From positions 11,592 through 75,591 of the forward strand of contig CAVVFV010000008.1 of the NCBI GenBank assembly GCA_963747695.1: a DNA stretch of 64,000 bases. The letters run 5' to 3'. A program made the translations under genes and the position numbers. Numbering within the stretch: position 1 is the first letter of the stretch; each line of letters opens with the position of its first letter. Below the pieces are notes generated by a model. It saw only the letters and a program-made list of their open reading frames with translations. It did not search any database and was not told the origin of the DNA. Origin of the DNA: Candidatus Falkowbacteria bacterium (GTDB lineage: Bacteria; Patescibacteriota; Patescibacteriia; Patescibacteriales; WJLG01). Positions 293 to 58,117 of this stretch are shown here, piece after piece.

Positions 293-303
293 TATATTGT
301 CTT

Positions 304-413
304 ATAATACGAATACAGCGAATTCTTCGCGAATACTACGAAATCCACGAATCGAATTATAATTCGTTAAAATGTTCGCGGTATTCGCGTAAAATTTGCA
401 GTATTCGCATTAT
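304..413. repeat. Intergenic palindromic element, CGAATAC-word family
   Basis: Left arm ATAATACGAATACAGCGAATTCTTCGCGAATACTACGAA is the imperfect reverse complement of TTCGCGGTATTCGCGTAAAATTTGCAGTATTCGCATTAT. It lies between the promoter at 282 and the kinase start. Confidence 0.8.
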
Positions 414-441
414 ATAACCAAGCTTGCTAAACAAAAAAACT

Positions 442-1425
442 ATGAAGTATGATTTTATCGCCGTCGGCGGCATAGTCGAAGATATCACTTTTTATACTGA
501 AGAAGGAGTGATGATTGATAATAAAGATGATGTCTTAAAACAAAAGCTGGTCGGTTTTGAATTGGGGGCGAAGATCCGCATCACCGATGTCAGCCGTTTT
601 CCCGGCGGCGGGGCCAACAACGCCGCGGTCTGTCTCTCTAAGCTGGGATTTAAAACCGCGCTCCTGGCGGCGGTGGGCGAAGACGAGCCGGCCAAAAAGA
701 TGATCAAGAATCTGGCCGAGAACGGCGTCGATACCCGGCTGGTCAGGATCTTGCGCGGACAAGAGACTGGATTTTCCTTCGTGGTAATCAATAAAGATCG
801 CGAGCACGTCGCCTTTGTTTATCGCGGCGCCAATTCGCTTCTGGCCGTTTCCAAGATCGAAGCGCAGATGATGCATTACGCCCGCTGGCTCTATGTCGCT
901 TCGCTTTCCGGAGAATGGGAAAAAGTTTTGGATAAAGTTTTCGGCGTCAAAGACGCGCTGGTCGCCTGGAACCCGGGCAATGTGCAGTTGGCCGCCGGCG
1001 CCGGACACCTGCATAAGTATATGAAAAAAACCGCCGTGTTTATGGTCAATAAGGATGAAGCCACTGAATTGGTTATTAGCGAAGGAAAAAATAAGAATAA
1101 AGATGAAAAGTTTTTTCAGGAGACCAAGAATCTGCTGGTCGCTTTGAAGGAATTGGGTCCGGCCGCGGTTTTGATCACTGCTGGCGGTCAAGGCGCGGAT
1201 TTTTACGACGGCGAATTTTTTCATCATGAGAAATCTTTGCAGGTGCCTGCCGCCAAGATCGCCGATACCACCGGCGTGGGCGATTCCTTCTGCGCCACCT
1301 TCGTCGCCGGTCTGGAAATGTATGAGGGCGATTATAAAAAAGCGATGAAGCTCGCGATGAAGAACGCCGCCGCCAATCTCAAGGAAGAAGGCGCGCAAAA
1401 CGGACTACTCTCAATTAAGAATTAA
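442..1425 (+). CDS. PfkB-family carbohydrate kinase (ribokinase-like)
   Basis: GGGANNAA near the N-terminus and DTTGVGDSF (PfkB signature 2) near the C-terminus. I prefer the ATG at 442 over the TTG at 424. Confidence 0.8.
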   Translation: MKYDFIAVGGIVEDITFYTEEGVMIDNKDDVLKQKLVGFELGAKIRITDVSRFPGGGANNAAVCLSKLGFKTALLAAVGEDEPAKKMIKNLAENGVDTRLVRILRGQETGFSFVVINKDREHVAFVYRGANSLLAVSKIEAQMMHYARWLYVASLSGEWEKVLDKVFGVKDALVAWNPGNVQLAAGAGHLHKYMKKTAVFMVNKDEATELVISEGKNKNKDEKFFQETKNLLVALKELGPAAVLITAGGQGADFYDGEFFHHEKSLQVPAAKIADTTGVGDSFCATFVAGLEMYEGDYKKAMKLAMKNAAANLKEEGAQNGLLSIKN

Positions 1426-1838
1426 GAGATAAGAGAGAAAAGATTAGAAATTATAATTTACTAATTAAATGGAGGGGATAACGCAAACAAAAAGTTTTAA
1501 ATTTGGCTTGAGAATAATTAATTTATATAAATATTTGACTGAACGAAAGAAGGAATATATTATTTCAAAGCAAGTTTTAAGAAGCGGGACTTCTATTGGC
1601 GCTAATATGGAAGAAGCCGTAGGCGGACAAAGTAGAGCCGATTTTTACGCAAAAATATGTATCGCCTACAAGGAGGCCAGAGAAACCGTTTATTGGCTAA
1701 AATTATTACGAGGTGGATGTTACATTGAAGAAAACGATTTTATATCTATTTATAAGGATTGCGAAGAACTTTGCAAACTTCTGGGAAAGACTAAAATAAC
1801 GATGACGAAGTAGCAATTTCTTCTCTCTTCTCTCTTAA
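1422..1838. repeat. Composite palindromic cassette (AGAGAGA-word arms) enclosing a four-helix-bundle ORF
   Basis: Arms are at 1422-1443 (TTAAGAGATAAGAGAGAAAAGA) and 1817-1838 (TTTCTTCTCTCTTCTCTCTTAA). They are reverse complements with 3 mismatches. Confidence 0.75.
1469..1813 (+). CDS. Four helix bundle protein (23S rRNA intervening-sequence protein / Avd-like family)
   Basis: RSGTSIGANMEEA and KEARETVYWLKLL motifs are typical of the family. Length is 114 aa. Confidence 0.8.
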   Translation: MEGITQTKSFKFGLRIINLYKYLTERKKEYIISKQVLRSGTSIGANMEEAVGGQSRADFYAKICIAYKEARETVYWLKLLRGGCYIEENDFISIYKDCEELCKLLGKTKITMTK

Positions 1839-2807
1839 ATGAATATCTTAATTACGGGCGGTGCCGGTTTCATCGGCTCGGATTTTATCAGGTTTTGGTT
1901 GGAAAAATATCCGGAAGATAAGATTATCAATCTGGATGTTTTGACGTACGCGGGAAATCTGGAAAATCTGCGGGCGGTGAAAAACAATCCCAACTATAAG
2001 TTCATCAAAGGCGATATCTGCGATGCCAATCTGGTCAATAAATTGGTGAAAGGCGTCGATTTGATCGTCAATTTTGCGGCGGAGTCGCATGTCGATCGTT
2101 CGATAATCGATAGCGCCGACTTTATCCGCACCAACGTCGAAGGCACCCGCGTTTTGCTGGACGCCGCAAGGAACAACGGTTCGCTCCGGTTTCATCATAT
2201 TTCCACTGACGAGGTTTTCGGCCACCTCGAGCCTAATGATCCGCCTTTCAACGAAAGAACGCCGTATAATCCGCGCAGTCCTTATGCCGCTTCCAAAGCC
2301 GCGGCCGATCATCTGGTCCGCGCCTATTTCAATACTTACGGCTTGCCGATCACCATTTCCAACTGTTCCAATAATTACGGCCCGTTCCAGCATCCGGAAA
2401 AATTCATTCCGTCGGCGATTACCAATATTTTACAAGGGAAAAAGATCGCGCTGTACGGTTCGGGAGAAAATATCCGCGACTGGATCAATGTCCGCGACCA
2501 TATCCGCGGCGTGGAAGCGGTCATCAAACAAGGCCAGAGCGGGGAGACTTATTGTCTGGGCGGCGGTGGAGAAATGACGAACTTGAATCTGGCGAAAAAG
2601 ATTCTGGCGCTGTTGGGAGAAGGCGAAGAAAAACTGGAATTTGTCGCCGACCGCCGGGGCCACGACCGCCGCTATGCGATCGATTCAAGCCGGGCACAGC
2701 GAGAATTGGGTTGGAAAAAAGAAATCGATTTCGACTTGGGTCTCGCCGAGACGGTCAGCTGGTATAAGAGCAATCGCTCTTGGTGGGAGAAATTAAAGAA
2801 TCGCTAA
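1839..2807 (+). CDS. rfbB: dTDP-glucose 4,6-dehydratase
   Basis: ITGGAGFIGS Rossmann motif, HISTDEVFG, and YAASKAAADHL (YxxxK). Confidence 0.9.
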   Translation: MNILITGGAGFIGSDFIRFWLEKYPEDKIINLDVLTYAGNLENLRAVKNNPNYKFIKGDICDANLVNKLVKGVDLIVNFAAESHVDRSIIDSADFIRTNVEGTRVLLDAARNNGSLRFHHISTDEVFGHLEPNDPPFNERTPYNPRSPYAASKAAADHLVRAYFNTYGLPITISNCSNNYGPFQHPEKFIPSAITNILQGKKIALYGSGENIRDWINVRDHIRGVEAVIKQGQSGETYCLGGGGEMTNLNLAKKILALLGEGEEKLEFVADRRGHDRRYAIDSSRAQRELGWKKEIDFDLGLAETVSWYKSNRSWWEKLKNR

Positions 2808-3436
2808 TGAACATCAGCCTTAATCAGCATAAGAAGATTTTTATCATTTGCGCCGCCGTTACGGTGCTCGGTTTATGCGCTTACACTTTTTTTGTGGCGC
2901 TAAGGGAGTCAGGTATTTCGGCGCTGGCTTCATCGACAATTAAGAACGTCAGCATCAAGCTGCCTGCCAACACCAGCTATCAGGTTGGCCAAAAATATTC
3001 GCTTTCCTGGAGTTCGGATTGCCGCGGCGGCACGGTGATGGTCTGGCTGTCGACCGCTTCCTCGAGCAAAGCGAACATCGGGATCCTGGTGCCGCTGGCG
3101 AGTTTTTCGGCGGCTGACTTTGGAACCAAAAGCCAAGATGACCGGATATTTTTCAATGATCCCTGGAAATTCATCCTGAGTCAAAACGCCAATAAGGGAA
3201 AAATAACCTGGACGGTTCCGCAAAAATTGAGCCTCGACAAGTCGCTTTTTGGCGGTTCCGTCGGAGTTTATTATATCTATTCTTTAGCCGACGGGCGGTA
3301 CGCCCTGCACAAGATCGTCGAGCAGCTGGTGGAAATGTCGGTAATGCCGGATAATTATTATCTGCGCGTCGACATCAAAGGGAAGAACGGCTGCGAAGCC
3401 ACGGGGTACAGTTCGGCGATAAAAATTATCAGATAG
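2807..3436 (+). CDS. Hypothetical membrane-anchored or secreted protein
   Basis: The ATG overlaps the rfbB stop (TAATG). It has an N-terminal hydrophobic helix and no recognisable motif. Confidence 0.55.
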   Translation: MNISLNQHKKIFIICAAVTVLGLCAYTFFVALRESGISALASSTIKNVSIKLPANTSYQVGQKYSLSWSSDCRGGTVMVWLSTASSSKANIGILVPLASFSAADFGTKSQDDRIFFNDPWKFILSQNANKGKITWTVPQKLSLDKSLFGGSVGVYYIYSLADGRYALHKIVEQLVEMSVMPDNYYLRVDIKGKNGCEATGYSSAIKIIR

Positions 3437-3437
3437 C

Positions 3438-3501
3438 AGATAAGAGAGAAGAGAGCAGAGATTTTTAAGCGTCTCTTATCTCTTCTCTCTTAATTCTTAT
3501 C
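3438..3501. repeat. Intergenic palindrome, AGAGAGA-word family, 'empty' (no ORF)
   Basis: AGATAAGAGAGAAGAGAG ... CTCTTATCTCTTCTCTCTTAATTCTTATC. It uses the same vocabulary as the arms flanking the 4HB gene at 1469. Confidence 0.7.
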
Positions 3502-3510
3502 TTTATTTTA

Positions 3511-8745: not shown

Positions 8746-8759
8746 AAATATCGCTAAAC

Positions 8760-8876
8760 ATGATGCGAATACTACGAATTTTTCGCGAATACCGCGAACT
8801 ATTTATCGAATTAAGATGCGATAATTCGTTAAATCTATTTGTTGTATTCGCGAAGAATTCGTAGTATTCGCATCAT
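8760..8876. repeat. 117-nt palindromic element, CGAATAC-word family
   Basis: ATGATGCGAATACTACGAAT ... ATTCGTAGTATTCGCATCAT. It is near-identical in length and ends to 39030-39146. Confidence 0.9.
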
Positions 8877-8894
8877 GGCATAAAGATTATTTCT

Positions 8895-11252: not shown

Positions 11253-11278
11253 GAAGTTTGGACGACAGTTATGAGCGA

Positions 11279-11307
11279 TTAAGAATTAGGATTTAAGAAT
11301 TATGAAT
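11279..11307. repeat. Left copy of a 29-nt inverted repeat (TAAGAATT words)
   Basis: TTAAGAATTAGGATTTAAGAATTATGAAT is the reverse complement of 12192-12220 with 1 mismatch. Confidence 0.85.
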
Positions 11308-11311
11308 ATCT

Positions 11312-11332
11312 GCCCCCTTCCAGGGGGTTTTT
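11312..11332 (+). terminator. Rho-independent terminator
   Basis: CCCCC-TTCCA-GGGGG followed by TTTTT. Confidence 0.7.
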
Positions 11333-11441
11333 GCTTATTTTAGATAAAATACTTGACTTAATTAAATAAGTGTGGCAATATTTAATAGAAATAATTATTT
11401 ATTTTGTCATTCCCGCCTTCGCGGGGATGACATATTGATTT

Positions 11442-11807
11442 ATGTATACTCCCAAAGTTCTCGAGCATTTTAAGAATCCGCGCAATCAGGGCGAAATGAA
11501 AGATTGCGACGCGGTCGGCCAGGAAGGCAACCCGGTCTGCGGCGACGTGATGAAAATATATCTGAAGATCGAAAATAATATCATTAAGGATGTTAAGTTC
11601 GAAACTTTGGGCTGCGCCGCGGCGATCGCCGTCTCTTCGGATCTGACCGAGATGGTCAAAGGCAAAACTTTGGACGAAGCGCTGGCGATCACTAAAGACG
11701 ATGTGGTCAAAGATCTGGGCGGCTTGCCGGAAGTTAAGGTTCATTGTTCGATGCTCGGCGTCGACGCGTTAAGAAAGGCGATTGAAAATTATAAAAATAA
11801 AAGCTAA
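11442..11807 (+). CDS. iscU: Fe-S cluster scaffold IscU/NifU N-terminal type
   Basis: Three conserved Cys contexts: PVCGD, LGCAAAIA and HCSMLG. Confidence 0.9.
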   Translation: MYTPKVLEHFKNPRNQGEMKDCDAVGQEGNPVCGDVMKIYLKIENNIIKDVKFETLGCAAAIAVSSDLTEMVKGKTLDEALAITKDDVVKDLGGLPEVKVHCSMLGVDALRKAIENYKNKS

Positions 11808-11876
11808 TGCTAATTTTGCGAATGATGCGAATCTACGAATATTCGCGCGATTCGCATCATTAGAAAATTAGCATTA
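11805..11876. repeat. Palindromic element, TAATGCTAATTTT...GATGCGAAT subtype
   Basis: Arm TAATGCTAATTTTGCGAATGATGCGAATC pairs with GATTCGCATCATTAGAAAATTAGCATTA. It starts in the iscU stop codon, and the same arms occur at 52585-52689. Confidence 0.85.
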
Positions 11877-11889
11877 AACTAATTGGCAT

Positions 11890-12138
11890 ATGTCGAAAAA
11901 TAAAATAAATAATATTGAAGAAAAGATAAGAAAATCGCTGGATACTGTCCGTCCTTCGCTGCAGGCCGACGGCGGCGACGTGGAGTTTAAGAGTTTTGAC
12001 GCTAAAAGCGGCACGGTGAAAGTCGCTCTGGTTGGTCATTGCGCCCATTGTCCAATGTCGCAGCTAACTTTGAAGGAAGGGGTGGAAGCGATCTTGAAGA
12101 AGGAAGTTCCGGAGGTAAAGAAAGTCATAAACGATTAA
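11890..12138 (+). CDS. NifU C-terminal-domain protein (Fe-S carrier)
   Basis: GGDVEF and GHCAHCPMS (CxxC) motifs. Confidence 0.85.
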   Translation: MSKNKINNIEEKIRKSLDTVRPSLQADGGDVEFKSFDAKSGTVKVALVGHCAHCPMSQLTLKEGVEAILKKEVPEVKKVIND

Positions 12139-12191
12139 TCAATTCGCCGCGCCGCCAGTCTCGCGAAGCGGACTGCGGCGGACCCAGATAT

Positions 12192-12220
12192 ATTCATAAA
12201 TCTTAAATCCTAATTCTTAA
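12192..12220. repeat. Right copy of the 29-nt inverted repeat
   Basis: ATTCATAAATCTTAAATCCTAATTCTTAA. It ends 10 nt before the ddl ATG. Confidence 0.85.
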
Positions 12221-12230
12221 ATCTTATTTA

Positions 12231-13283: not shown

Positions 13284-14513
13284 TTTATGATATATTTCGA
13301 CCACAGCGCCACGACTCCGGCGGATAAGAAAGTCTTAAAAGCGATGGAGCCGTATTGGCGGGAAATTTTTGGCAATCCGTCTTCGATCCATGCATATGGG
13401 CAGCAGGCGGTTTTGGGCGTGGATCAGGCCCGGGCTAAAGCGGCCAAATTTTTCGGCTGCGAGAACGAGGAAATCATCTTCACTTCCGGCGCCACTGAGG
13501 CTAATAATCTGGCTTTGCGCGGGGTCATCAAGGCGTTAAAGGGCGAAGTTGCCAAGCCGCACATCATCACTTCCAAAGTCGAACATGACGCGATTATCGA
13601 ACCGTGCCGCGATCTCGAGCAGGAAGGGGTTGAAGTTACTTATTTGCCGGTTGATAAAACTGGAAGAATAAATCCGGAAGACGTGAAAAAGGCGATTAAG
13701 GAAAATACGGTCTTAGTTTCCATTATGGATGTGAATAGCGAGGTCGGCATCCGCGAGCCGATCCGCGAGATCGGCAAGCTGATCGAGAAAATCAATGAAG
13801 GAAGAATGAACGAGTGGCAGCGGACCGGGGCGGCCAAGAAATTGCCCAAGCCGCGGACGATTTATTTTCATACCGATGCCACGCAAGCGGTGAATTTTTT
13901 CGATTGCAACGTCGATAAGCTTCATGTTGACTTACTCTCAATGTCGGCGCATAAAATCTACGGACCCAAAGGCGTAGGACTTTTGTATATCAGAAAAGGC
14001 GTGTCAATCGCGCCGATTCAGCTGGGCGGTCATCATGAACGGAATATCCGTTCCGGAACCTTGAATGTCACCGGCATCGTCGGTCTGGGTGAAGCTTTGG
14101 CTTTAATCACTGAGACCGATCAGGAAAAAAATAATAAAAAAATAGCGGTCTTGCGCGATCGCCTGGTCGAGGGAGTAATAAAAAATATTCCCGATGTGGT
14201 TTTGAATACCGACCGCCCCAATGCGACTCCGGCCCATGCTCATTTTACGCTTCGTGGCGCGGAAGGTGAATCAGTCTTGATCTCACTTGATTTCGAAGGC
14301 ATAGCCGTGTCCACCGGTTCGGCTTGCGCTTCGAACAGTTTGAAATCATCGGAAGTTTTGGAGGCAATGGGCGTCTGTGAGGAAGATTCTCATTATTCGA
14401 TCCGCTTTACTCTGGGCAAGGATAATACCCGCGAAGAAGTTGATAAAGTCGTTAAAATTTTACCCGGGATAATTAAGAAGCTTAGAGAGATGAACCCGAT
14501 TTACGGAAAATAA
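13281..14513 (+). CDS. nifS: Cysteine desulfurase (NifS/IscS type)
   Basis: SAHKIYGPKG (PLP lysine) and TGSACAS (active-site Cys). The start may be the ATG at 13287. Confidence 0.9.
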   Translation: MFMIYFDHSATTPADKKVLKAMEPYWREIFGNPSSIHAYGQQAVLGVDQARAKAAKFFGCENEEIIFTSGATEANNLALRGVIKALKGEVAKPHIITSKVEHDAIIEPCRDLEQEGVEVTYLPVDKTGRINPEDVKKAIKENTVLVSIMDVNSEVGIREPIREIGKLIEKINEGRMNEWQRTGAAKKLPKPRTIYFHTDATQAVNFFDCNVDKLHVDLLSMSAHKIYGPKGVGLLYIRKGVSIAPIQLGGHHERNIRSGTLNVTGIVGLGEALALITETDQEKNNKKIAVLRDRLVEGVIKNIPDVVLNTDRPNATPAHAHFTLRGAEGESVLISLDFEGIAVSTGSACASNSLKSSEVLEAMGVCEEDSHYSIRFTLGKDNTREEVDKVVKILPGIIKKLREMNPIYGK

Positions 14514-14962
14514 CCAATATCAAATAACCAATATTTAAAAAAATAAAAAATATTAAAATAATTTAAAGCATGATTTATGATCTGGAGGGGAGAACTAAAT
14601 CATTTAGCAGTAATGTGCTGAATTTTTTGCAAGCCGTGCCGCGAAATGATTTTACCAGAAACATTATTTTACAATTGATCAGGTCGGCAACAAGTATTGG
14701 CGCAAATTATCATGAGGCGAATGGCGGCTGTTATAGGAAGGAATTTAAAAATAGAATTTCCATCTGCTTGAGAGAAACAAAAGAAACTAAATATTGGATA
14801 GAATTATTGGCTAAATGCAGGGGTGTTGAATTGGCGGCGTTAAGAAAATTGTGGAAAGAGGCTGCTGAATTTTCTCTAATTTTTGGCTAGATATATTCAA
14901 GTTTATAATATTAAAATATTTAGATATTTTTTTAAGTATTGGTTATTTGATATTGGATATTT
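14514..14962. repeat. Composite palindromic cassette (CCAATAT-word arms) enclosing a four-helix-bundle ORF
   Basis: Left arm CCAATATCAAATAACCAATATTTAAAAAAATA... (14514-14568) pairs with right arm ...TAAGTATTGGTTATTTGATATTGGATATTT (14901-14962). The cassette fills the nifS stop to GT4 start spacer exactly. Confidence 0.8.
14570..14890 (+). CDS. Four helix bundle protein (23S rRNA IVS protein / Avd-like family)
   Basis: RSATSIGANYHEANG and KETKYWIELL motifs. Length is 106 aa. Confidence 0.8.
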   Translation: MIYDLEGRTKSFSSNVLNFLQAVPRNDFTRNIILQLIRSATSIGANYHEANGGCYRKEFKNRISICLRETKETKYWIELLAKCRGVELAALRKLWKEAAEFSLIFG

Positions 14963-16093
14963 ATGAAGATCTTACTTGTAATAACGAAGGCCGTCGTGGG
15001 CGGGGCGCAGACTTCCGTATTGAATTTGGCGCGGGAAATGAAGCGGCGCGGTCATGAGGTCACGGTCGGGTTTGGCGATGGCGATTGGCTGCCGCTTGAA
15101 TTGGATAAAGCGAAAATCGCGTATTATCGTTTCCGTAATTTAAAGAGAACGCATAATCCCTTGGCCAATCTTTTTTTTATCGGCGAGATCGCCGGCTATT
15201 TGCGGCGCAAGGATTTTAGCGCGGTGCATTTCAATAGTTCCAATGCCTTGCCCGGCGCGATTGGCGCGAAATTGGCCGGTCGAAAAATTAGGACAATTTT
15301 CACTTTCCGGGGTATGTCGATGCTGGACGAGCATTACCGGACGAACCCGATCAAGAAGTTCGCTTATCGGTTATTTTTTAAATTCTGCCTGTTATTCGTG
15401 GACGCGCCGGTTTTCGTTTCCCGGGAAAATTGGGAAAAATTCGGCCAAGGCCAGCTAACCAAGCGAGGATTCTTGATTTACAATGGTTTGGATCCGGAAC
15501 AGGTGAATTTCGTTCCGCGGGCAGAGGCGATTAATTTTTTTTCGCAAAAGACCGGTCGTGATTTGGCGGGAAAATACCTCCTCGGCTCGATCGGCCGCCT
15601 GGATTATGCCAAGAATTACGAGTTCTTGATCAATATTTTCCCGAAAATTTTGAATATCCGGTCGGATGCCGCGCTAGCGATTATGGGCGAGGGAGCGGAG
15701 CGAGCGCAGTATGAAAATTTAATCCAGGCCAAAGGTTTGACGGAAAAAATATTTTTATTGGGCAACGTCGAGAATGGCGGCCGCTATCTTCGTGGGTTTG
15801 ATTTGTTCGTCCAGCCGTCGCGTTATGAAGGATTGTCAATCGCCTTGATCGAGGCCTTGTTTGCCGGCTCGCTTATTTTGACTAGCGACGTCGGCGGCAA
15901 TCGCGAGGTCGTCGGCGGCTCCAACGAAGAAATATACCGCCTGGACGATGAAGCGGAATTTCTCGCCAAATTCCAGGCTCTGCAGGATATCGATCTTTGG
16001 CCGAAGATAATCCACAATAACGCGGGTCAGGCGCTCAAATTCCGTCTCGCCGACACCGCCGACGGCTATGAGAAAATTTACCAAGAAAAATAA
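14963..16093 (+). CDS. Glycosyltransferase family 4 (GT-B)
   Basis: C-terminal EGLSIALIEALFAG (E-x7-E motif). Confidence 0.8.
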   Translation: MKILLVITKAVVGGAQTSVLNLAREMKRRGHEVTVGFGDGDWLPLELDKAKIAYYRFRNLKRTHNPLANLFFIGEIAGYLRRKDFSAVHFNSSNALPGAIGAKLAGRKIRTIFTFRGMSMLDEHYRTNPIKKFAYRLFFKFCLLFVDAPVFVSRENWEKFGQGQLTKRGFLIYNGLDPEQVNFVPRAEAINFFSQKTGRDLAGKYLLGSIGRLDYAKNYEFLINIFPKILNIRSDAALAIMGEGAERAQYENLIQAKGLTEKIFLLGNVENGGRYLRGFDLFVQPSRYEGLSIALIEALFAGSLILTSDVGGNREVVGGSNEEIYRLDDEAEFLAKFQALQDIDLWPKIIHNNAGQALKFRLADTADGYEKIYQEK

Positions 16094-33962: not shown

Positions 33963-33977
33963 ATAAATTTAGCGGCA

Positions 33978-34065
33978 AATATCCAATATCAAATAACTAA
34001 TATCAAAAAAATATTAAAATATTTAATTATTTTTTAAAATATTGGTTATTTGATCTTGGATATTT
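33978..34065. repeat. Intercistronic palindrome, CCAATAT-word family, 'empty'
   Basis: AAATATCCAATATCAAATAACTAATATC... pairs with ...ATATTGGTTATTTGATCTTGGATATTT. It lies between the gmd stop and the fcl start. Confidence 0.85.
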
Positions 34066-36530: not shown

Positions 36531-36678
36531 ATAATACGAATACTACGAATTTTATGCGAATACTACGAACACTGCGAACCGAATAACACACCCTGTCCGC
36601 GAGGCGCGGACACCCCTCTCGAGAGGGGAATAAAAATAGTTCGCGGTATTCGCGAAGAATTCGCGGTATTCGTATCAT
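36531..36678. repeat. Nested palindromic element: CGAATAC arms plus a GC-rich twin-hairpin core
   Basis: Arms ATAATACGAATACTACGAA... and ...TTCGCGGTATTCGTATCAT. The core at 36595-36628 is GTCCGCG-AGG-CGCGGAC plus CCCCTCTCGAGAGGGG. Confidence 0.85.
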
Positions 36679-36758: not shown

Positions 36759-37814
36759 ATGGAAAAACGAAGTTTGGAAGAAAAAAAAGGCTGGCCGTTG
36801 GCGGGAAACGTCAAGATTACCGATTTTTTGGAAAAAAGCATCACCAACGGTAAAATAGTCAATACTTATATTTTTTTGGGCTTAAAGGACCTGGGCAAGA
36901 CCGCGGCGGCCGTTTATTTTGCCAAGAGTCTGCTCTGCCAGAAGCAGAAGCCGGGAATTTTTTCGTTGCCTTGCGGCAGCTGTTCGTCTTGCCGCCAAAT
37001 GCAGAATTCCGGCAAGGAAGAAAAGGGTTTTGAAACATTGCACGGCGATTTTCATTTAGTCAGAAAAGAAGAGGGTAAGAAAAATATTTCCATCGAGCAA
37101 ATCCGGGAATTCATCAGGATTTTAGAAATGAGTTCTTTTTCGAATTCCTATAAAGTCGGCATTATCAAGGACGCTGATGATCTTTCCGAGGGAGCGGCCA
37201 ATGCATTGCTAAAAACCCTGGAAGAACCGCGGCCGAAAGTCGTCGTGATTTTGACCGCTGCCCGCCTGGAAAAAATTCCCGCGACGATCGTTTCGCGCAG
37301 CCAGGTGCTGCATTTCTTGCCGGTGCCGGTTGCGACGATCTATGATTATCTGGTCAAGGATCTTGGTTGTCCGCGCGGGGAAGCCAAAAATATTTCGCGC
37401 TTGAGCCTGGGCCGGCCGGCGCTGGCGGCGAAATTTTTCGAAGACCGGGATTTTTATCAGAGTTATTTGGAAAAAACCGAAACCTTTTTGCAATTTTTTA
37501 AAAATAATTTGAACGATCGCCTGACCGCGGTCGGTGCGATCAGCGCCGCCGGGGATGAGGAAAGCAAAGCGGAGACCGCCCTGGGAATTTTAAACGTCTG
37601 GCAGGGGATCTTGAGAGATTTGATTTTGCTTAACTCCAATAATGGCGATTTGATCCAGCATGAGCCGTGGCGGGAAAAATTGGAAAAAATCTCCGGCGGA
37701 TTGAATGGCGGCAGTCTAAAAAAGATCAGCGAGTCGCTCGCGCTGGGCGAAAAATATGTCCGTGCCAATGTCAATCCGCGGCTGGTGCTGGAGAATATAG
37801 CCATTAATATATAA
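36759..37814 (+). CDS. holB: DNA polymerase III subunit delta'
   Basis: FLGLKDLGKT P-loop-like motif, CGSCSSC zinc module and LLKTLEEP. Confidence 0.8.
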   Translation: MEKRSLEEKKGWPLAGNVKITDFLEKSITNGKIVNTYIFLGLKDLGKTAAAVYFAKSLLCQKQKPGIFSLPCGSCSSCRQMQNSGKEEKGFETLHGDFHLVRKEEGKKNISIEQIREFIRILEMSSFSNSYKVGIIKDADDLSEGAANALLKTLEEPRPKVVVILTAARLEKIPATIVSRSQVLHFLPVPVATIYDYLVKDLGCPRGEAKNISRLSLGRPALAAKFFEDRDFYQSYLEKTETFLQFFKNNLNDRLTAVGAISAAGDEESKAETALGILNVWQGILRDLILLNSNNGDLIQHEPWREKLEKISGGLNGGSLKKISESLALGEKYVRANVNPRLVLENIAINI

Positions 37815-37899
37815 TTTTTAATTTTTGTAATTTTTAAATTTTTAAAGAATTTTTAATATTTAATTTTTAAAAATTATAAAATTAAAAATTAAAAATTAT
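37811..37899. repeat. Palindromic element, AATTTTTA-word family
   Basis: ATAATTTTTAATTTTTGTAATTTTTAAATTTTT... pairs with ...AAATTAAAAATTAAAAATTAT. Confidence 0.75.
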
Positions 37900-37906
37900 C
37901 AGCCAT

Positions 37907-38998
37907 ATGTTCAATCAAAAAATCATCATTGCTTTTTCGCTTTGTTTGGCGGCGGTGCTGTTAATGGGCGCCGGGTGTTCCATTTCTTTCAAAGGCGGCG
38001 ACACCTCGGCGGTTGACGGCGGATTTTGGGTCAGTCTGGATCAAGGCGTATCCTGGCGGCAGGTCAATGCCGTGCCGACTGCCGGAGGCGTAAGCAATAT
38101 CAATGCGCTCGACGATTCGAGCCTGGCGCTGGATCCGGAGGACACGAACGCGATTTATTTCGGCAGCGCCACTGACGGATTATATTATACTTATGGTCTA
38201 AGCAACGGCTGGACCAAGGCGACGGGTTTGAATGAAAAGAAAATCAATGCCGTGGCCGTCAGCCCTGATGATAAATGCATCATTTATGCGGCCGCCGGCA
38301 ATAAAGTCTACCGCTCGAGCGACTGCAGCCGCACCTGGACGCAAATTTATTTTGATAATGATCCCACCACGCAGATCAATGCGCTGGCAGTAGATTTTTA
38401 TAACGCCCAGCGCCTTTATTTCGGAAATTCGAGAGGCGATGTGGGGCGCAGCGTCGATCGCGGCGATCATTGGGTAACGGTTTTACGCTCCGGCTCCGGA
38501 ATCAATCAGATCGTGCTGAGCCCGGCGGACAGCCGCAAGGTTTTCGTCACTACCGTCGGCGAAGGCATTTATCGGACTGCCGATGCCGGTGATAATTGGG
38601 TCTCGCTCAAGGGCGAGATGGCAGAATTCAAAAATAGTTTTAATATCGTTTCGCTGGTAGTCACGCCGGGTAATGACGGCCTGATTTTTGCGGCCACGGC
38701 TTACGGACTTTTAAAATCAGCCGATTCCGGCGACACTTGGACAAGGATCAATCTGATCACCTCGGAACAAAACGCTTCGATTAATTCTTTGGCCGTCAAC
38801 CCGCAGAATTCTAAAGAAATTTATTATGTCACTAATACTACTTTTTACAGTTCGGGAGACGGCGGCGCCAGCTGGCGGACCAAAAAACTTCCTTCCACCC
38901 GCGCCGGCTGGCAATTGCTGGTCAAGCCGGACGAACCCAAGGTGATCTTTATGGGAGTGAAGAAAACTCAACAAAGTTCCGGAGCCTTCGGATTATAA
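37907..38998 (+). CDS. Lipoprotein with six BNR/Asp-box repeats (beta-propeller, Ycf48/sialidase-like fold)
   Basis: LLMGAGCS lipobox. SxDxGxxW occurs six times: SLDQGVSW, SSDCSRTW, SVDRGDHW, TADAGDNW, SADSGDTW and SGDGGASW. Confidence 0.75.
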   Translation: MFNQKIIIAFSLCLAAVLLMGAGCSISFKGGDTSAVDGGFWVSLDQGVSWRQVNAVPTAGGVSNINALDDSSLALDPEDTNAIYFGSATDGLYYTYGLSNGWTKATGLNEKKINAVAVSPDDKCIIYAAAGNKVYRSSDCSRTWTQIYFDNDPTTQINALAVDFYNAQRLYFGNSRGDVGRSVDRGDHWVTVLRSGSGINQIVLSPADSRKVFVTTVGEGIYRTADAGDNWVSLKGEMAEFKNSFNIVSLVVTPGNDGLIFAATAYGLLKSADSGDTWTRINLITSEQNASINSLAVNPQNSKEIYYVTNTTFYSSGDGGASWRTKKLPSTRAGWQLLVKPDEPKVIFMGVKKTQQSSGAFGL

Positions 38999-39029
38999 TG
39001 GAGGAATAAGAAAATTAATAAGTTCGCAC

Positions 39030-39146
39030 ATGATGCGAATACTACAAATTTTACGCGAATACTACAAACAGATTTCACGAATTTACTTTTAATAATTCGA
39101 TAAATAGTTCGCGGTATTCGCGAAGAATTCGTAGTATTCGCATCAT
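39030..39146. repeat. 117-nt palindromic element, CGAATAC-word family
   Basis: ATGATGCGAATACTACAAAT ... ATTCGTAGTATTCGCATCAT. It is a close copy of 8760-8876. Confidence 0.9.
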
Positions 39147-39182
39147 GATTTCAACTTTAGATTAAATTAAAATAACAATATT

Positions 39183-39738: not shown

Positions 39739-39834
39739 GGCGCTTAGGCACTTAGGTAATTAGGGCTTAGGATTGTTTTTATGTTCAGAAATTAATATCG
39801 TTGCGCCTAAGCACCTAATTAACTAAGTACCTAA
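39739..39834. repeat. Paired word blocks: four TTAGG-core words (CTTAGG x3 plus ATTAGG), then four CTAA-core words (CCTAAG, ACTAAG, CCTAA x2)
   Basis: GGCGCTTAGGCACTTAGGTAATTAGGGCTTAGG (39739-39771) and GCGCCTAAGCACCTAATTAACTAAGTACCTAA (39803-39834). Confidence 0.7.
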
Positions 39835-39855
39835 TAATTTTTTAAAATATTTTTT

Positions 39856-45370: not shown

Positions 45371-45541
45371 ATAATATCCAATAAAAAATAACCAATATCA
45401 TAAAAAATAATCAATAACCAATAACCAATATTTTTAAAAAATATTATAATAATTAAATATCTAAAATCTTGGCTGGTTATTTTAATTATTAAAATATTAA
45501 ATTATTTTTTAAAATATTTGTTATTTGATATTGGATATTAA
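45371..45541. repeat. Palindromic element, CCAATAT-word family (long)
   Basis: AATAATATCCAATAAAAAATAACCAATATC... pairs with ...TTGTTATTTGATATTGGATATTAAT. Confidence 0.8.
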
Positions 45542-46443: not shown

Positions 46444-46541
46444 AATATTAAATATCAAATAATTAATATCCAAAAAATAATATAATATTTTAATATTAAA
46501 ATATTTTTTTGAATATTGGATATTTGATATTGGATATTTTT
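46444..46541. repeat. Palindromic element, CCAATAT-word family
   Basis: AATATTAAATATCAAATAATTAATATCC... pairs with ...GAATATTGGATATTTGATATTGGATATTTT. Confidence 0.8.
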
Positions 46542-47891: not shown

Positions 47892-47984
47892 ATTAATATC
47901 CAATATCAAATAACCAATAATTTAAAAAATAATAAAATATTTAAATATTGAATTATTTTTTTGATATTGGTTATTGGATATTCA
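47892..47984. repeat. Palindromic element, CCAATAT-word family
   Basis: ATTAATATCCAATATCAAATAACCAATAAT... pairs with ...TTGATATTGGTTATTGGATATTCAG. Confidence 0.8.
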
Positions 47985-49818: not shown

Positions 49819-49834
49819 AATTTTCTTTTAAAAA

Positions 49835-49888
49835 AACCGCCCCGCACCATCTTTTGAAAAATTCAAAAGATGGTGCGGGGCGGTTTTA
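49835..49888. terminator. Bidirectional terminator with a 24-bp perfect stem
   Basis: AACCGCCCCGCACCATCTTTTGAA-AAAT-TTCAAAAGATGGTGCGGGGCGGTT is flanked by A and T runs between convergent genes. Confidence 0.8.
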
Positions 49889-52576: not shown

Positions 52577-52584
52577 AAAGAATA

Positions 52585-52689
52585 TAATGCTAATTTTCGA
52601 ATGATGCGAATCTGCGAATATTCGTAAAATTGCATTACTATTTATAAGTTACAATTCGTAAATTCGCATCATTCGCGAAATTAGCATTA
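52585..52689. repeat. Palindromic element, TAATGCTAATTTT...GATGCGAAT subtype
   Basis: TAATGCTAATTTTCGAATGATGCGAAT pairs with ATTCGCATCATTCGCGAAATTAGCATTA. The arms match those at 11805-11876. Confidence 0.85.
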
Positions 52690-52876
52690 GAATTATATTA
52701 TAGCATAGCCTAAGCAAGGCATTATTTCAACTTCGATATGTTTACAGTCAGTTTTGCTTATAGTGTCAAGATTGCTTTTTATTTTGCTAAGTGGTAGGCT
52801 AAAAACAGCTAAGCTAATAATAGCTATACTTTATCGAAGGGGTTATCAATCTATTGATAAAAACTTCACTAAATCT

Positions 52877-53098: not shown

Positions 53099-53132
53099 GA
53101 AACAGCGTTTCGGAACTAACCAACTTGAGTGT

Positions 53133-53280
53133 ATAATGCGAATACAACGAATTGTACGCGAATACTACGAACCCGCTAACCGAATAACACACCCCGTCCG
53201 CGAGGCGCGGCCACCCCTCTCGAGAGGGGAATTAAAAATGGTTCGCGGTATTCGCGCATAATTCGTAGTATTCGCATCAT
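53133..53280. repeat. Nested palindromic element: CGAATAC arms plus a GC twin-hairpin core
   Basis: It is collinear with 36531-36678. The core at 53196-53229 is GTCCGCG-AGG-CGCGGCC plus CCCCTCTCGAGAGGGG. Confidence 0.85.
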
Positions 53281-53284
53281 ATTA

Positions 53285-54293: not shown

Positions 54294-54477
54294 TGATGCT
54301 AATCCGCAAATGAGCGCGAATGCCGCGAAAACCGCGAATAACACACCCCGTCAAGCCGAGGCGGCTTGCCACCCCTCTCCCACGCATCGCTTCGCTTTGC
54401 GGGGCAAGCGAGAAGGGAATTATTTAATTATTCGCATTTTTCGCGGCATTCGCGACTTTTTCGCAGCATTCGCATCA
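54294..54477. repeat. Nested palindromic element in the groES 5' leader (CGAATGC arms, GC core, extra insert)
   Basis: Arms TGATGCTAATCCGCAAATGAGCGCGAATGCCGCGAAAACCGCGAATAA and TTATTCGCATTTTTCGCGGCATTCGCGACTTTTTCGCAGCATTCGCATCA. Core is CAAGCCG-AGG-CGGCTTG (54352-54368) plus CCCCTCTC-[30 nt]-GAGAAGGG (54372-54417). Confidence 0.85.
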
Positions 54478-54485
54478 GAATTTTT

Positions 54486-54773
54486 ATGACAATTAAACCT
54501 CTTCACGACAATGTGGTCATTAAACCGGTGGTCGCGGAAAAGACCACCAAAGCCGGAATCGTTTTACCGGACACGGTCGATAAAGGCAAACCCGAGCAGG
54601 GCACGGTAATGGCGGTCGGTACGGGAAAAATTTTGGACAACGGCCAGCTGGCCAGGATGTCGGTCAAGGTCGGGGATAAAGTGATGTTCAAAAAATACGC
54701 CGCGGACGAGATCGAAATCGGCGGCGAGAAAATGATTTTAATTTCCGAGTCGGATATTTTAGCAATATTATAA
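54486..54773 (+). CDS. groES: Co-chaperonin GroES
   Basis: I prefer the ATG at 54486 (MTIKPLHDNVVIKPV...). The track's extension reads through the repeat. Confidence 0.92.
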   Translation: MTIKPLHDNVVIKPVVAEKTTKAGIVLPDTVDKGKPEQGTVMAVGTGKILDNGQLARMSVKVGDKVMFKKYAADEIEIGGEKMILISESDILAIL

Positions 54774-56543
<1,770 letters not shown>

Positions 56544-56629
56544 GCGGAAATTTTCAATTTTCAATTATCAATTTTCAAACAATTTTGAATAAAAAAGATG
56601 GGGTTGAGGCCCTGTCTTTTTTTAGAACT

Positions 56630-57650: not shown

Positions 57651-57683
57651 GGGTTTTCAAACGCAATTTTTCGTCTGTCCTTT

Positions 57684-57713
57684 TAGGGATCGGTATTAAA
57701 CCGGTCCCTATTT
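57684..57713 (+). terminator. Hairpin, possible terminator
   Basis: TAGGGATCGG-TATTAAA-CCGGTCCCTA followed by TTT. Confidence 0.5.
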
Positions 57714-57716
57714 ATA

Positions 57717-57745
57717 TTGACAAATAGATTAGAAAATGATATCGT
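57717..57745 (+). promoter_or_regulatory. Promoter TTGACA-14 nt-TGaTATCGT
   Basis: TTGACAAATAGATTAGAAAATGATATCGT is paralogous to the sequence at 56630-56658. Confidence 0.5.
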
Positions 57746-57815
57746 GACAAAGTAAAAATTGATGGGTCGAAAGTTATTTTTCTAACAAAAAAAATGAGGA
57801 CAAAGGAGGTTAAAC

Positions 57816-58052: not shown

Positions 58053-58087
58053 AAAAAATAATTCAGAGTCCTTCTGAGATCATAATG

Positions 58088-58117
58088 AAGGGGCAGGTAT
58101 TAAGCCGCCCCTTTTTT
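58088..58117 (+). terminator. Rho-independent terminator
   Basis: AAGGGGC...GCCCCTT stem followed by TTTTTT. Confidence 0.7.

What the first reader, a model, noticed from the sequence alone, without database searches (positions are those of the whole stretch)
1422..1838. Four-helix-bundle (Avd / 23S-IVS-type) ORF sits in the loop of an intergenic palindrome that exactly spans pfkB stop to rfbB start
The left arm is TTAAGAGATAAGAGAGAAAAGA (1422-1443) and begins one base before the kinase TAA stop codon, overlapping it. The right arm is TTTCTTCTCTCTTCTCTCTTAA (1817-1838) and ends one base before the rfbB ATG at 1839. The arms are reverse complements with 3 mismatches in 22 nt. The 345-nt four-helix-bundle ORF is the only thing between them.

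An 'empty' palindrome made of the same AGAGAG/TCTCTC words, with juxtaposed arms and no ORF, fills the next intergenic gap at 3438-3501.

A long stem with a loop encoding an S23p/four-helix-bundle protein is the known architecture of ORF-bearing intervening sequences in 23S rRNA, which RNase III excises. Here the same design sits in an mRNA intercistronic spacer.

I propose a cargo-optional hairpin cassette. It could be a processing or insulator site whose loop can carry a 4HB gene, or a mobile element whose passenger is the 4HB gene.
Basis: partly seen in the sequence, partly recalled or inferred. Interest (0 to 1): 0.85.

Follow-up and report, generated by a model that had tools for sequence, protein, structure and literature searches.

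The report
Four-helix-bundle gene inside heptamer-repeat hairpin
A small gene otherwise known from insertions in ribosomal RNA sits here between two ordinary genes, in the loop of a hairpin whose arms are mirrored runs of 7-base words, and this turns out to be a widespread, apparently undescribed modular element found across many bacterial phyla.

Summary
Arms 1422-1445 and 1815-1838 pair (21 of 24) around a PF05635/TIGR02436 four-helix-bundle (4HB) ORF. They run from the pfkB stop codon to the epimerase ATG. A second 4HB gene (14570-14890) has the same layout with unrelated arms (38 nt, 95% paired).

In two independent cohorts (78 genome loci from many phyla, 64 metagenome loci), 70-72% of 4HB genes have flanking inverted repeats above the 95th percentile of control genes. 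The arms are tandem arrays of 7-nt words; only period 7 is enriched. The purine-rich arm lies upstream in 102 of 106 elements.

Arms co-vary between orthologs, change length by 7-nt units, and their words co-diverge with the protein. The cassette is present or absent at this same junction in close relatives. ORF-less copies coexist in the genome, and homology between copies ends at the array edges. The protein is under purifying selection (dN/dS 0.03-0.11).

The Coxiella 23S rRNA intervening sequence has the same anatomy and is cut by RNase III. My best reading is an IVS-type hairpin cassette living in operon spacers. RNase III processing here is inferred, not shown; no RNA-specific G·U signature was found. 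Novelty: new variant of a known kind.

The parts
1422..1445 (+). Left arm A1: purine-rich heptamer array (TAAGAGA/TAAGAGA/GAAAAGA). It contains the pfkB stop codon (1423-1425).
   Evidence: TRF period 7 at 1423-1448; anchoring on the stop codon is conserved in orthologs
1469..1813 (+). 4HB ORF #1 (114 aa), PF05635 / TIGR02436, '23S rRNA intervening-sequence protein' family
   Evidence: dN/dS 0.03-0.11
1815..1838 (+). Right arm A'1: pyrimidine-rich heptamer array (TCTTCTC units). It ends directly at the epimerase ATG (1839).
3431..3461 (+). Arm A2: the purine-rich half of the 'empty' palindrome, starting in the stop-codon region of the 217-aa gene
3472..3502 (+). Arm A'2: the pyrimidine-rich half of the 'empty' palindrome, upstream of HIT. 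It is orthologous to the right arm of the 4HB element in L089, and it is the best complement of A1.
   Evidence: 29 of 32 nt identical to L089
424..1425 (+). PfkB-family kinase, the host gene in front. Its last codons ATT AAG AAT TAA are part of the heptamer array.
1839..3436 (+). Epimerase/dehydratase (1839-2807) plus an overlapping 217-aa gene (to 3436). This two-gene block is itself bracketed by arms A'1 and A2 and is variably present in relatives.
14508..14545 (+). Left arm of the second element (W2): AAATAACCAATATC x2. It starts in the stop codon of the IscS-like gene (ends 14513).
14570..14890 (+). 4HB ORF #2 (106 aa, PF05635 E=7e-14). It has a premature TAG relative to its ortholog in L169.
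14925..14962 (+). Right arm of W2. It ends directly at the glycosyltransferase ATG (14963).
   Evidence: (z=-4.2)
33977..34065 (.). ORF-less copy of the W2 family (arms plus inner flank)
45372..45540 (.). ORF-less copy of the W2 family (composite)
46444..46539 (.). ORF-less copy of the W2 family
47895..47982 (.). ORF-less copy of the W2 family

Best explanation
What it is (shown). The feature is one copy of a modular genetic element made of three parts that stay together:
- a purine-rich tandem array of a 7-nt word;
- a four-helix-bundle gene of the 23S-rRNA-IVS protein family (PF05635/TIGR02436);
- the complementary pyrimidine-rich array.

The element lies inside an operon in the same direction as the gene in front of it. 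The two arrays run from that gene's stop codon to the next gene's start codon. It is the same kind of element as the ORF-bearing intervening sequences of 23S rRNA, here living in an mRNA spacer.

How it most likely works:
1. Supported, not proven: it has no convincing promoter or terminator of its own and is transcribed by read-through from pfkB.
2. Predicted by folding: in the transcript the arrays pair into a duplex of 22 bp or more (family median 32 nt). This brings the host stop and start codons to the base of the stem.
3. Inferred by analogy, untested: RNase III cuts this duplex, as it does in the rRNA-borne relatives. Cutting releases the 4HB message and separates the flanking cistrons, each keeping a half-stem end, so the insertion is tolerated.
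4. Shown: at the DNA level the arrays gain and lose whole 7-nt units, the two arms stay complementary, and the arrays mark the ends of the unit.
5. Shown as a pattern, mechanism inferred: ORF-less copies persist as REP-like palindromes. Recombination between arrays of the same word adds or removes cargo, both the 4HB gene and neighbouring gene blocks.
6. Function inferred: the protein is functional. Because its sequence co-diverges with the word, it may bind its own array.
For: Anatomy in the window. Arms pair in the MFE and centroid folds: W1 z=-2.4, W2 z=-4.2, empty palindrome z=-5.4.

Generality:
- In 78 genome loci from many phyla, the median flanking inverted-repeat score is 36 against 16 for 261 control genes. 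70% exceed the control 95th percentile (Mann-Whitney p=9e-28).
- Replicated in 64 metagenome loci, where 72% exceed it.
- Periodic flanks are period 7 in 30 of 31 and 35 of 35 cases, against 0 of 156 control windows. In the second cohort it is 21 of 21 and 19 of 19.
- Heptamer arrays occur at 2.76 per kb next to 4HB genes against 0.165 per kb elsewhere in the same loci.

Geometry and polarity:
- Arms have a median length of 32 nt and 97% are at least 20 nt. The left arm starts a median of 3 nt inside the upstream stop codon. The downstream start lies a median of 5 nt after the right arm.
- The gene is co-directional with the upstream gene in 65 of 69 loci.
- The purine-rich arm is upstream in 102 of 106 elements (p=1e-25).

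Operon context: the scan finds a terminator at 229-261, a promoter-like site at 269-298, and only weak consensus promoter matches inside the 4HB ORF. No terminator lies between pfkB and the epimerase.

Constraint on the arms:
- Four orthologs at the pfkB junction all keep 20 bp or more, anchored on the stop codon. Each pair shows 2-5 two-sided compensatory changes in 22 positions.
- Window versus L089: spacers are 34 of 36 and 29 of 32 identical, while synonymous sites are saturated.

Behaviour as a unit, and mobility:
- In W2 versus L169 the block 14506-14965 is about 92% identical against about 70% in the flanks. Third-codon-position identity is 86% inside against 47-52% outside.
- L164 and L168 share an 86% identical block that starts at the array edge, in unrelated contexts.
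- Words track protein identity (Mantel 0 of 500).
- The cassette is present or absent at the same junction in relatives.
- ORF-less copies are homologous to the loaded copy.

Protein is functional: dN/dS 0.03-0.11.

Link to rRNA IVS: the Coxiella 23S IVS has GACAGAT heptamers in its stem, upstream of the S23p ORF. Their copy number varies between strains, and RNase III cuts at the first repeat (PMC4990558).
Against: - RNase III cleavage of these mRNA stems is untested. No RNase III signature motif was found in the 64-kb window, which is uninformative for the rest of the genome.
- The one sequence test specific for RNA-level pairing failed. Sense-strand G.U mismatches number 35 and A.C mismatches 44 (p=0.37), so complementarity could be maintained at the DNA level.
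- About 28-30% of loci have no strong inverted repeat within 150 nt. Some have directly repeated arrays (L077). Some have arms of slightly different words, mismatched once per unit (L021, AATTAGG versus AATTACG).
- The element encodes no recombinase or transposase. No target-site duplication could be defined.
- The copy in question shows no recent movement. Its history is broadly congruent with pfkB.
- Inverted heptamer arrays also bracket ordinary genes, such as IscU/NifU at 11278-12226. The arrays are therefore not exclusive to 4HB genes.
Confidence: 0.6

Rival explanations
1. Purely DNA-level mobile element, MITE-like or REPIN-like. The heptamer arrays would be terminal inverted repeats recognised as DNA hairpins or cruciforms by an enzyme encoded elsewhere, or handled by replication and repair. 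RNA pairing would be incidental and there would be no RNA processing role.
For: - No G.U over A.C excess on the sense strand.
- Array length changes in whole 7-nt units, which is typical of replication slippage.
- Homology between copies ends at the array edges.
- ORF-less copies are gained in a lineage-specific way.
- Words are shared between neighbouring junctions of one genome.
Against: - Orientation and polarity rules are strong: co-directional with the upstream gene in 65 of 69 loci, and purine-rich arm upstream in 102 of 106.
- The arms sit precisely on stop and start codons, which points to constraints from expression.
- No transposase lies in or near the elements, and no target-site duplication was found.
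- The rRNA-borne relatives are experimentally processed as RNA.
Confidence: 0.22
2. Host regulatory device. The hairpins would be REP-like intercistronic stabilisers or translational-coupling structures. Translation to the upstream stop codon would melt the stem base and free the downstream start. The 4HB protein would be a trans-acting regulator that binds the arrays, including ORF-less ones, to tune operon expression.
For: - The stop codon lies inside the left arm and the start codon directly follows the right arm.
- Palindromes fill many co-directional spacers in the window.
- The protein is under purifying selection.
- Word and protein co-diverge.
- Arms are conserved far beyond synonymous sites.
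Against: - The gene is patchily present or absent at one junction among close relatives.
- Proteins 50-65% identical occur across more than 10 phyla.
- A discrete block is younger than its flanks.
- Copies occur in unrelated contexts.
These are traits of a selfish or exchangeable element rather than a core regulator. There are no binding data.
Confidence: 0.13
3. Chance complementarity of low-complexity AG-rich and CT-rich spacer sequence, with no biological meaning.
For: The arms are low-complexity. The whole-region fold z-score for W1 is modest (-2.4).
Against: - The word is confined to the four arms.
- A second element has unrelated arms that are 95% paired.
- Two cohorts give p of about 1e-27.
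- Covariation is seen in orthologs.
Confidence: 0.01
4. Accessory protein (Avd) of a diversity-generating retroelement.
For: The fold superfamily is shared with Avd (my own knowledge; the finding's title mentions it).
Against: - The neighbours are a kinase, an epimerase, a HIT protein and a response regulator, with no reverse transcriptase.
- There is no template/variable repeat pair.
- The protein matches TIGR02436 and PDB 2RLD, the IVS-protein branch.
Confidence: 0.01

Closest known systems
ORF-bearing intervening sequences (IVS) of 23S rRNA (Coxiella burnetii, Leptospira, Brucella, Xanthomonas; S23p ORF)
   Same: - Same protein family in the loop.
- Terminal inverted repeats form a long stem, and the element is about 430 nt.
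- In Coxiella the stem 5' of the ORF is made of tandem heptamers (GACAGAT) whose copy number varies between strains, and it is purine-rich (PMC4990558).
- ORF-less versions exist.
   Different: - Located between protein-coding genes in an operon, not in helix 9, 25 or 45 of 23S rRNA. There is no rRNA in the window or in 16 related loci.
- The arms overlap host stop and start codons.
- The protein is under purifying selection here, whereas the Coxiella ORF is decaying.
- RNase III excision is untested.
REP/REPIN elements and their RAYT transposases
   Same: - A gene is flanked by inverted copies of a short repeat, and that repeat also occurs genome-wide as ORF-less palindromic doublets in intergenic spacers.
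- There are several repeat families per genome.
- Protein and repeat co-diverge.
   Different: The protein is a small four-helix bundle, not a Y1 (IS200/IS605-like) transposase, and no catalytic motif is known. The arms are tandem 7-nt arrays rather than a fixed REP sequence.
Intergenic heptamer tandem repeats (cyanobacterial STRR, TAACTGA repeats of Beggiatoaceae, cyanobacteria and Bacteroidetes, GGGAATC of Xanthomonas, Geobacter heptanucleotide sites)
   Same: - 7-nt tandem arrays in intergenic regions, often ending next to a start codon.
- They often occur in convergent, inverted pairs: 70-75 pairs in Xanthomonas (PMC4692102).
- A horizontally patchy distribution is proposed for TAACTGA (PMC4679880). 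TAACTGA arrays flank the 4HB gene in Nostocales locus L044.
   Different: Those papers do not connect the arrays with a gene. Here the arrays bracket a specific protein family.
RNase III processing hairpins between cistrons (phage T7 early mRNA; the stems bracketing 16S and 23S rRNA)
   Same: A long duplex formed by sequences that flank a transcription unit inside a longer transcript. This is the functional analogy for step 3.
   Different: No experimental cleavage data here. The arms are repeat arrays, and the loop encodes a conserved protein.
Integron gene cassettes (attC)
   Same: Promoterless, co-oriented units separated by imperfect palindromes whose structure is conserved more than their sequence. 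The set of units between fixed anchors varies (the pfkB..HIT interval).
   Different: No integrase was seen. The palindrome arms flank the ORF rather than follow it, and the arms are heptamer arrays.

Membership tests
PF05635 / TIGR02436 four-helix-bundle (23S rRNA IVS protein, S23p) | HMM match above the curated cutoff | tested here: met
   PF05635: 88.9 bits against a cutoff of 33.8. TIGR02436: 96.6 bits against 24. The second paralog scores 52.5 and 62.3 bits.
PF05635 / TIGR02436 four-helix-bundle (23S rRNA IVS protein, S23p) | Sequence relative with a solved four-helix-bundle structure | tested here: met
   PDB 2RLD, E=1.9e-29, residues 3-106. No structure was predicted here.
ORF-bearing 23S rRNA intervening sequence | Inserted within a 23S rRNA helix | tested here: not met
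   No Rfam family in the window. The flanks are PfkB and an epimerase. No rRNA was found in 16 related loci.
ORF-bearing 23S rRNA intervening sequence | Terminal inverted repeats forming a long stem with the S23p ORF in the loop | tested here: met
ORF-bearing 23S rRNA intervening sequence | Excision from the precursor by RNase III | not testable with these tools
   Needs RNA-end mapping or an in vitro assay. Stem length (97% at least 20 nt) is compatible with an RNase III substrate.
Diversity-generating retroelement (Avd) | Adjacent reverse transcriptase and a template/variable repeat pair | tested here: not met
   Neighbouring genes. There are no long direct repeats around the ORF.
REP/REPIN-RAYT system | The flanked gene encodes a Y1 (IS200/IS605-type) transposase | tested here: not met
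   The only Pfam hit is PF05635.
REP/REPIN-RAYT system | The same repeat occurs as ORF-less inverted doublets elsewhere in the genome | tested here: met
   The W2 family has 4 ORF-less copies in 64 kb. The AAGAGAG palindrome is at 3431-3502. 22 of 69 loci have same-word arrays within 4 kb on either side.
MITE / terminal-inverted-repeat transposon | Target-site duplication and an identifiable transposase family | tested here: inconclusive
   Occupied and unoccupied junctions were compared. No duplication could be defined because the ends are repetitive, and no transposase was seen.
Intrinsic terminator | Short G+C-rich stem followed by a T run | tested here: not met
   The terminator scan finds none at the arms. 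The loop is 369 nt.
Known anti-phage defence proteins | Match to a PADLOC model | tested here: not met
   0 families for both paralogs.

The most novel reading that the evidence does not exclude
The four-helix-bundle IVS proteins and heptamer tandem arrays form one self-propagating system. Each protein lineage recognises its cognate 7-nt word and promotes the maintenance, spread or cargo exchange of the array hairpins, in a RAYT/REPIN-like partnership built on a non-transposase protein.

This would explain three long-standing puzzles:
- the excess of heptamer repeats in bacterial genomes (STRR, TAACTGA, GGGAATC);
- the function of the S23p/TIGR02436 family;
- the origin of 23S rRNA intervening sequences, as copies that landed in rRNA.
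Probability: 0.2. Interest if true: 0.95.

Novelty: new variant of a known kind. Interest (0 to 1): 0.8.

Why it matters
The S23p/four-helix-bundle family has thousands of members and solved structures. It has had no known function since the rRNA intervening sequences were described around 1990. The origin of those intervening sequences and the excess of 7-nt tandem repeats in bacteria are also unexplained.

The results here tie the three together. Across many phyla the gene travels with a pair of inverted heptamer arrays, mostly outside rRNA, inside operons. ORF-less derivatives of the same element populate intergenic spacers.

This gives concrete experiments: RNase III end mapping, protein-array binding assays and a genome-wide census. 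It also matters for annotation, where these spacers and small ORFs are currently treated as unrelated features. They also appear to break metagenome assemblies, since many of the close homologs sit on contigs of only 1-3 kb.

The arrays also appear to drive gain and loss of neighbouring gene blocks in streamlined Patescibacteria genomes.

Tried and rejected
- G.U versus A.C mismatch asymmetry as a signature of RNA-level selection: 35 versus 44, no signal. I therefore do not claim RNA-level selection from sequence alone.
- An rRNA context: there is no Rfam hit in the window. A 23S-like motif near L037 was not confirmed, and 16 loci scanned showed only a tRNA and an L10 leader.
- An own promoter or terminator for the cassette: only weak consensus matches inside the ORF, not above shuffle expectation (9 versus 5.6±2.7).
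- An RNase III gene in the window, by signature motif: none found, which is uninformative.
- Defence-system membership: none.
- DGR/Avd reading: rejected because no reverse transcriptase or repeat pair is present.
- Recent transposition of the copy in question: rejected, because the 4HB and PfkB identity matrices are broadly congruent.
- Target-site duplication: could not be defined from occupied versus unoccupied junctions.
- Literature: four searches found no paper linking PF05635 genes outside rRNA to inverted heptamer arrays. The library lacks most subscription journals, so absence is not proof.
- Several look-ups returned no DNA (P0002, P0003, P0008, P0145, P0244), so those contexts are known only as gene order.
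Full report
**1. The observation**

The sequence is as described. The left arm TTAAGAGATAAGAGAGAAAAGA (1422-1443) overlaps the TAA stop codon of a PfkB-family kinase (ORF 424-1425). The right arm TTTCTTCTCTCTTCTCTCTTAA (1817-1838) ends directly at the ATG (1839) of an NAD-dependent epimerase/dehydratase.

The repeat finder extends the pair to 24 nt, 1422-1445 / 1815-1838, at 88% complementarity. Between the arms lies only ORF 1469-1813 (114 aa). It matches PF05635 (E=3e-25), TIGR02436 and the solved Bacteroides protein 2RLD (E=2e-29).

The palindrome at 3431-3502 is real. It folds at -32.9 kcal/mol, z=-5.4. The AAGAGAG-type word is confined to these four arms within 64 kb: 8 of 9 matches, against 1.4 expected. 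The 1400-1860 RNA fold pairs the arms, but the whole-region z-score is only -2.4. The case against chance therefore rests mainly on the comparisons below.

**2. The same design occurs twice in the window, and many ORF-less palindromes surround it**

A second PF05635 gene (14570-14890, 32% identical to the first) sits between arms 14508-14545 and 14925-14962. These are 38 nt long and 95% complementary, and the fold has z=-4.2. They are built from an unrelated word (AAATAACCAATATC, twice). They again run from the stop codon of the gene in front (an IscS-like aminotransferase, ending at 14513) to the ATG of the gene behind (a glycosyltransferase, 14963).

The window also contains several families of intergenic palindromes built from short words. 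Four of them (33977-34065, 45372-45540, 46444-46539, 47895-47982) align with this second element minus its ORF. The alignment covers both arms and the inner 3' flank. They relate to the loaded copy the way ORF-less IVSs relate to ORF-bearing ones, or MITEs to their parent element.

**3. The arms are tandem arrays of 7-nt words, and this holds across bacteria**

Tandem Repeats Finder reports period 7 for all four AAGAGAG arms and for the arms of the second element.

I fetched 80 loci encoding relatives from one genome per species. The relatives are 50-65% identical, and the hosts include Bacteroidota, Ignavibacteria, Lentisphaerae, Proteobacteria, Firmicutes, Cyanobacteria, Planctomycetes and Chloroflexi. 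I scored the best inverted repeat between the 150 nt upstream and the 150 nt downstream of each ORF.
- The median score is 36, against 16 for 261 other genes in the same loci.
- 70% exceed the control 95th percentile (Mann-Whitney p=9e-28).

The arms are runs such as (AATTACG)n...(CGTAATT)n, AATTAAG, AATTAGG, AGGTATG, AATGAGT, AAATGCA and AGTTGAC. Among 28-nt windows that are at least 85% periodic, 30 of 31 upstream and 35 of 35 downstream have period 7. None of 156 control windows is periodic.

Heptamer arrays are 17-fold denser next to 4HB genes than elsewhere in the same loci (2.76 against 0.165 per kb).

An independent cohort of 64 usable metagenome loci (37-88% identity) reproduces this. 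72% exceed the same threshold, and all periodic flanks have period 7. The words there are new, including AAAGGCA, AATGACA, AAAGGGT, GAATAGT and AAGTTCG.

**4. Geometry and polarity**

For the 106 elements with a clear inverted repeat:
- Arms have a median length of 32 nt, and 97% are at least 20 nt.
- The loop has a median length of 396 nt.
- The left arm begins a median of 3 nt inside the upstream gene's stop codon.
- The downstream start lies a median of 5 nt after the right arm.

The 4HB gene is co-directional with the upstream gene in 65 of 69 loci. The purine-rich arm is upstream on the sense strand in 102 of 106 elements (p=1e-25), although the words are unrelated.

In the window, a terminator (229-261) and a promoter-like site (269-298) precede pfkB. 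Nothing convincing lies between pfkB and HIT. The cassette therefore appears to be co-transcribed with the operon.

**5. Evolution at this very junction**

The closest 4HB relatives lie at the same place. The order is PfkB-4HB-epimerase-217aa-HIT in L081 and L083/84, and PfkB-4HB-HIT in L089 and in the contig of P0003.

The 4HB and PfkB identity matrices are broadly congruent, and dN/dS of the 4HB gene is 0.03-0.11. This copy is therefore old, vertically inherited, and encodes a working protein.

The arms differ between orthologs but stay paired. All four orthologs keep 20 bp or more, anchored on the base before the pfkB stop codon. Each pair shows 2-5 two-sided compensatory changes in 22 positions. 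Between the window and L089 the synonymous sites are saturated, yet the spacers are 34 of 36 and 29 of 32 identical and differ by exactly one 7-nt unit on each side.

Other close relatives lack the gene. L086 (PfkB 83% identical), L087 (78%), the contig of P0145 (66%) and L088 (61%) go straight from PfkB to the next gene, with gaps of 11-19 nt in the three for which DNA is held (the P0145 contig has a 69-nt gap). L086 and L087 retain heptamer words across the stop codon.

**6. The 'empty' palindrome reinterpreted**

In L089 the right arm and spacer in front of HIT are orthologous to the right half of the window's empty palindrome (3472-3510), differing by one heptamer unit.

The window's left arm A1 matches that distal arm better than its nearest partner: score 22 over 28 nt against 18 over 24. 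The layout is therefore A1-4HB-A'1-[epimerase+217aa]-A2-A'2-HIT, and the two-gene block is itself bracketed by arms.

Among relatives the pfkB..HIT interval holds every combination: 4HB plus the block, the block alone, the 217-aa gene alone, 4HB alone, or nothing. Recombination between same-word arrays in direct orientation would produce exactly such deletions. That mechanism is inferred.

L086 has an orthologous empty palindrome in front of HIT, built from another word (AAGTAAG). Within each genome the words at the two junctions resemble each other.

**7. The unit can move**

For the second element, the relative L169 has the gene at the same junction.
- The flanking genes are 71-74% identical in protein, with third-position identity of 47-52%.
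- The 4HB ORF has 86% third-position identity, and the spacers are 53 of 56 and 73 of 75 identical.
- The high-identity block starts at the left arm and ends at the right arm.

Either the element was exchanged between these lineages long after they split, or its whole sequence is under unusual constraint.

L164 and L168 are different contigs from one sample, with unrelated neighbouring genes. They share an 86% identical 491-nt block that begins exactly at the outer edge of the (AAAGGGT)n array. In L012, two 4HB copies within 4 kb both carry the rare word AGGTATG.

Across 120 elements, arm-word similarity rises steadily with protein identity. Words differ by at most 1 nt in 6% of pairs below 35% identity, 48% at 55-65%, and 96% above 80% (Mantel 0 of 500). 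ORF and arms are therefore inherited as a unit. Alternatively, the protein and its word co-evolve.

**8. What it is and how it probably works**

The closest described thing is the ORF-bearing intervening sequence of 23S rRNA. The Coxiella paper reports a 28-bp terminal stem, an S23p ORF in the loop, tandem GACAGAT heptamers between a purine-rich stretch and the start codon, strain-variable copy number, and RNase III cleavage at the first repeat (PMC4990558). That is the anatomy found here.

I therefore read the feature as an IVS-type hairpin cassette residing in an mRNA spacer. The steps from transcription to RNase III cleavage are inferred by analogy and from folding. They are compatible with the stem lengths, the orientation rule and the polarity rule.

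They are not supported by the one RNA-specific sequence test I could make: G.U 35 against A.C 44, p=0.37. DNA-level maintenance, through slippage and palindrome correction, clearly also acts.

No enzyme for mobility is encoded. Exchange by recombination between arrays of the same word, with ORF-less palindromes serving as landing sites, is my inference.

**9. Comparison with the literature**

Intergenic heptamer arrays have been described without a gene link:
- TAACTGA repeats in Beggiatoaceae, cyanobacteria and Bacteroidetes, with suspected horizontal spread (PMC4679880).
- GGGAATC arrays in Xanthomonas, with 70-75 convergent pairs (PMC4692102).
- Heptanucleotide sites in Geobacter (PMC2700814).

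In the Nostocales locus L044 the 4HB gene is flanked by (TCAGTTA)n upstream and (TAACTGA)n downstream. Four full-text searches found no paper that connects PF05635 genes outside rRNA with inverted heptamer arrays. The library omits most subscription journals, so this is not proof of novelty.

**10. Verdict**

- The interpretation as a cargo-optional, IVS-like hairpin cassette is supported in its structural and evolutionary parts. Its RNA-processing part is untested.
- The heptamer-array nature of the arms, the polarity rule, the word-protein co-divergence and the cross-phylum generality are additions.
- It fails the defining test for a 23S rRNA IVS, which is location in rRNA, so I file it as a new variant of that kind.
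- The source is a Patescibacteria-type genome, judging from the names of the closest relatives.

Noticed in passing
window 303-414, 8759-8877, 36531-36678, 39029-39147, 53132-53281, 54315-54454; related shorter copies at 11808-11889 and 52577-52700: The most abundant palindrome family in the window is built on CGAATAC/TACGAAT words, with a period of about 9-10 rather than 7, and is 110-150 nt long. No loaded (ORF-bearing) copy lies in the window. The copy upstream of pfkB lies just after the promoter-like TGCTATAAT. It is present in relative L086 but absent in L081, L087 and L088.
   Followed up: partly
window 36570-36640 and 53193-53240: Two CGAATAC-family palindromes carry the same nested pair of G+C-rich mini-hairpins (GTCCGCGAGGCGCGGAC, then CCCCTCTCGAGAGGGG) in their loops. 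A second small element appears to have inserted into the first.
   Followed up: no
window 11278-11307 and 12197-12226: Inverted heptamer arrays (ATTAAGA x4.3 and TAAATCT x4.3, about 30 of 33 complementary by eye) bracket two housekeeping genes: IscU-like NifU_N (11442-11807) and a NifU domain protein (11890-12138). The arrays are about 890 nt apart. So array pairs can bracket cargo other than 4HB genes.
   Followed up: partly
window 37786-37917 and 54765-54892; also 58234-58265 and 56549-56578: A T-first palindrome family is built on AATTTTTAAA words. There are also solo direct arrays (AATTAAA)x4.6 and (AATTTTC)x4.3.
   Followed up: no
window 39744-39835: A single palindrome is built on CTTAGG/CCTAAG words of period 8: GCACTTAGGTAATTAGGGCTTAGG ... 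CCTAAGCACCTAATTAACTAAGTACC.
   Followed up: no
window 14888-14890: The second 4HB gene ends at a TAG where its ortholog in L169 has CAG. It loses the last 6 residues (QIYSSL), so it may be starting to decay. The ortholog of the first gene in another relative (P0006) is truncated to 89 aa.
   Followed up: partly
window 49833-49887: A perfect 26-bp G+C-rich hairpin with A and T runs on either side lies between convergent genes. It looks like an ordinary bidirectional terminator and is unlike the word-built palindromes.
   Followed up: no
window 57651-58555: A 905-nt stretch has no long ORF, contains several strong local hairpins and an (AATTAAA) array, and has no Rfam match at gathering threshold.
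   Followed up: no
L074 3527-3631 and 4043-4166 (Endomicrobia MAG): The 4HB arms here are 105-124 nt long. They show a higher-order repeat of about 46 nt, made of heptamer runs (AATTACA) plus a spacer. This was the highest inverted-repeat score of the set (119).
   Followed up: no
P0008 contig (gene order only): One close 4HB homolog (66% identical) lies directly upstream of PrgI, TraC-like and TraG-like genes, which is a type IV secretion or conjugation-like cluster. This hints at one route for horizontal spread.
   Followed up: no
L086 4470-4510: At the unoccupied pfkB-epimerase junction of L086, a direct array (AAGTAAA)x5 spans from the last pfkB codons to the epimerase ATG. The kinase C-terminus (…EVKSKK) is encoded by the array itself.
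   Followed up: partly
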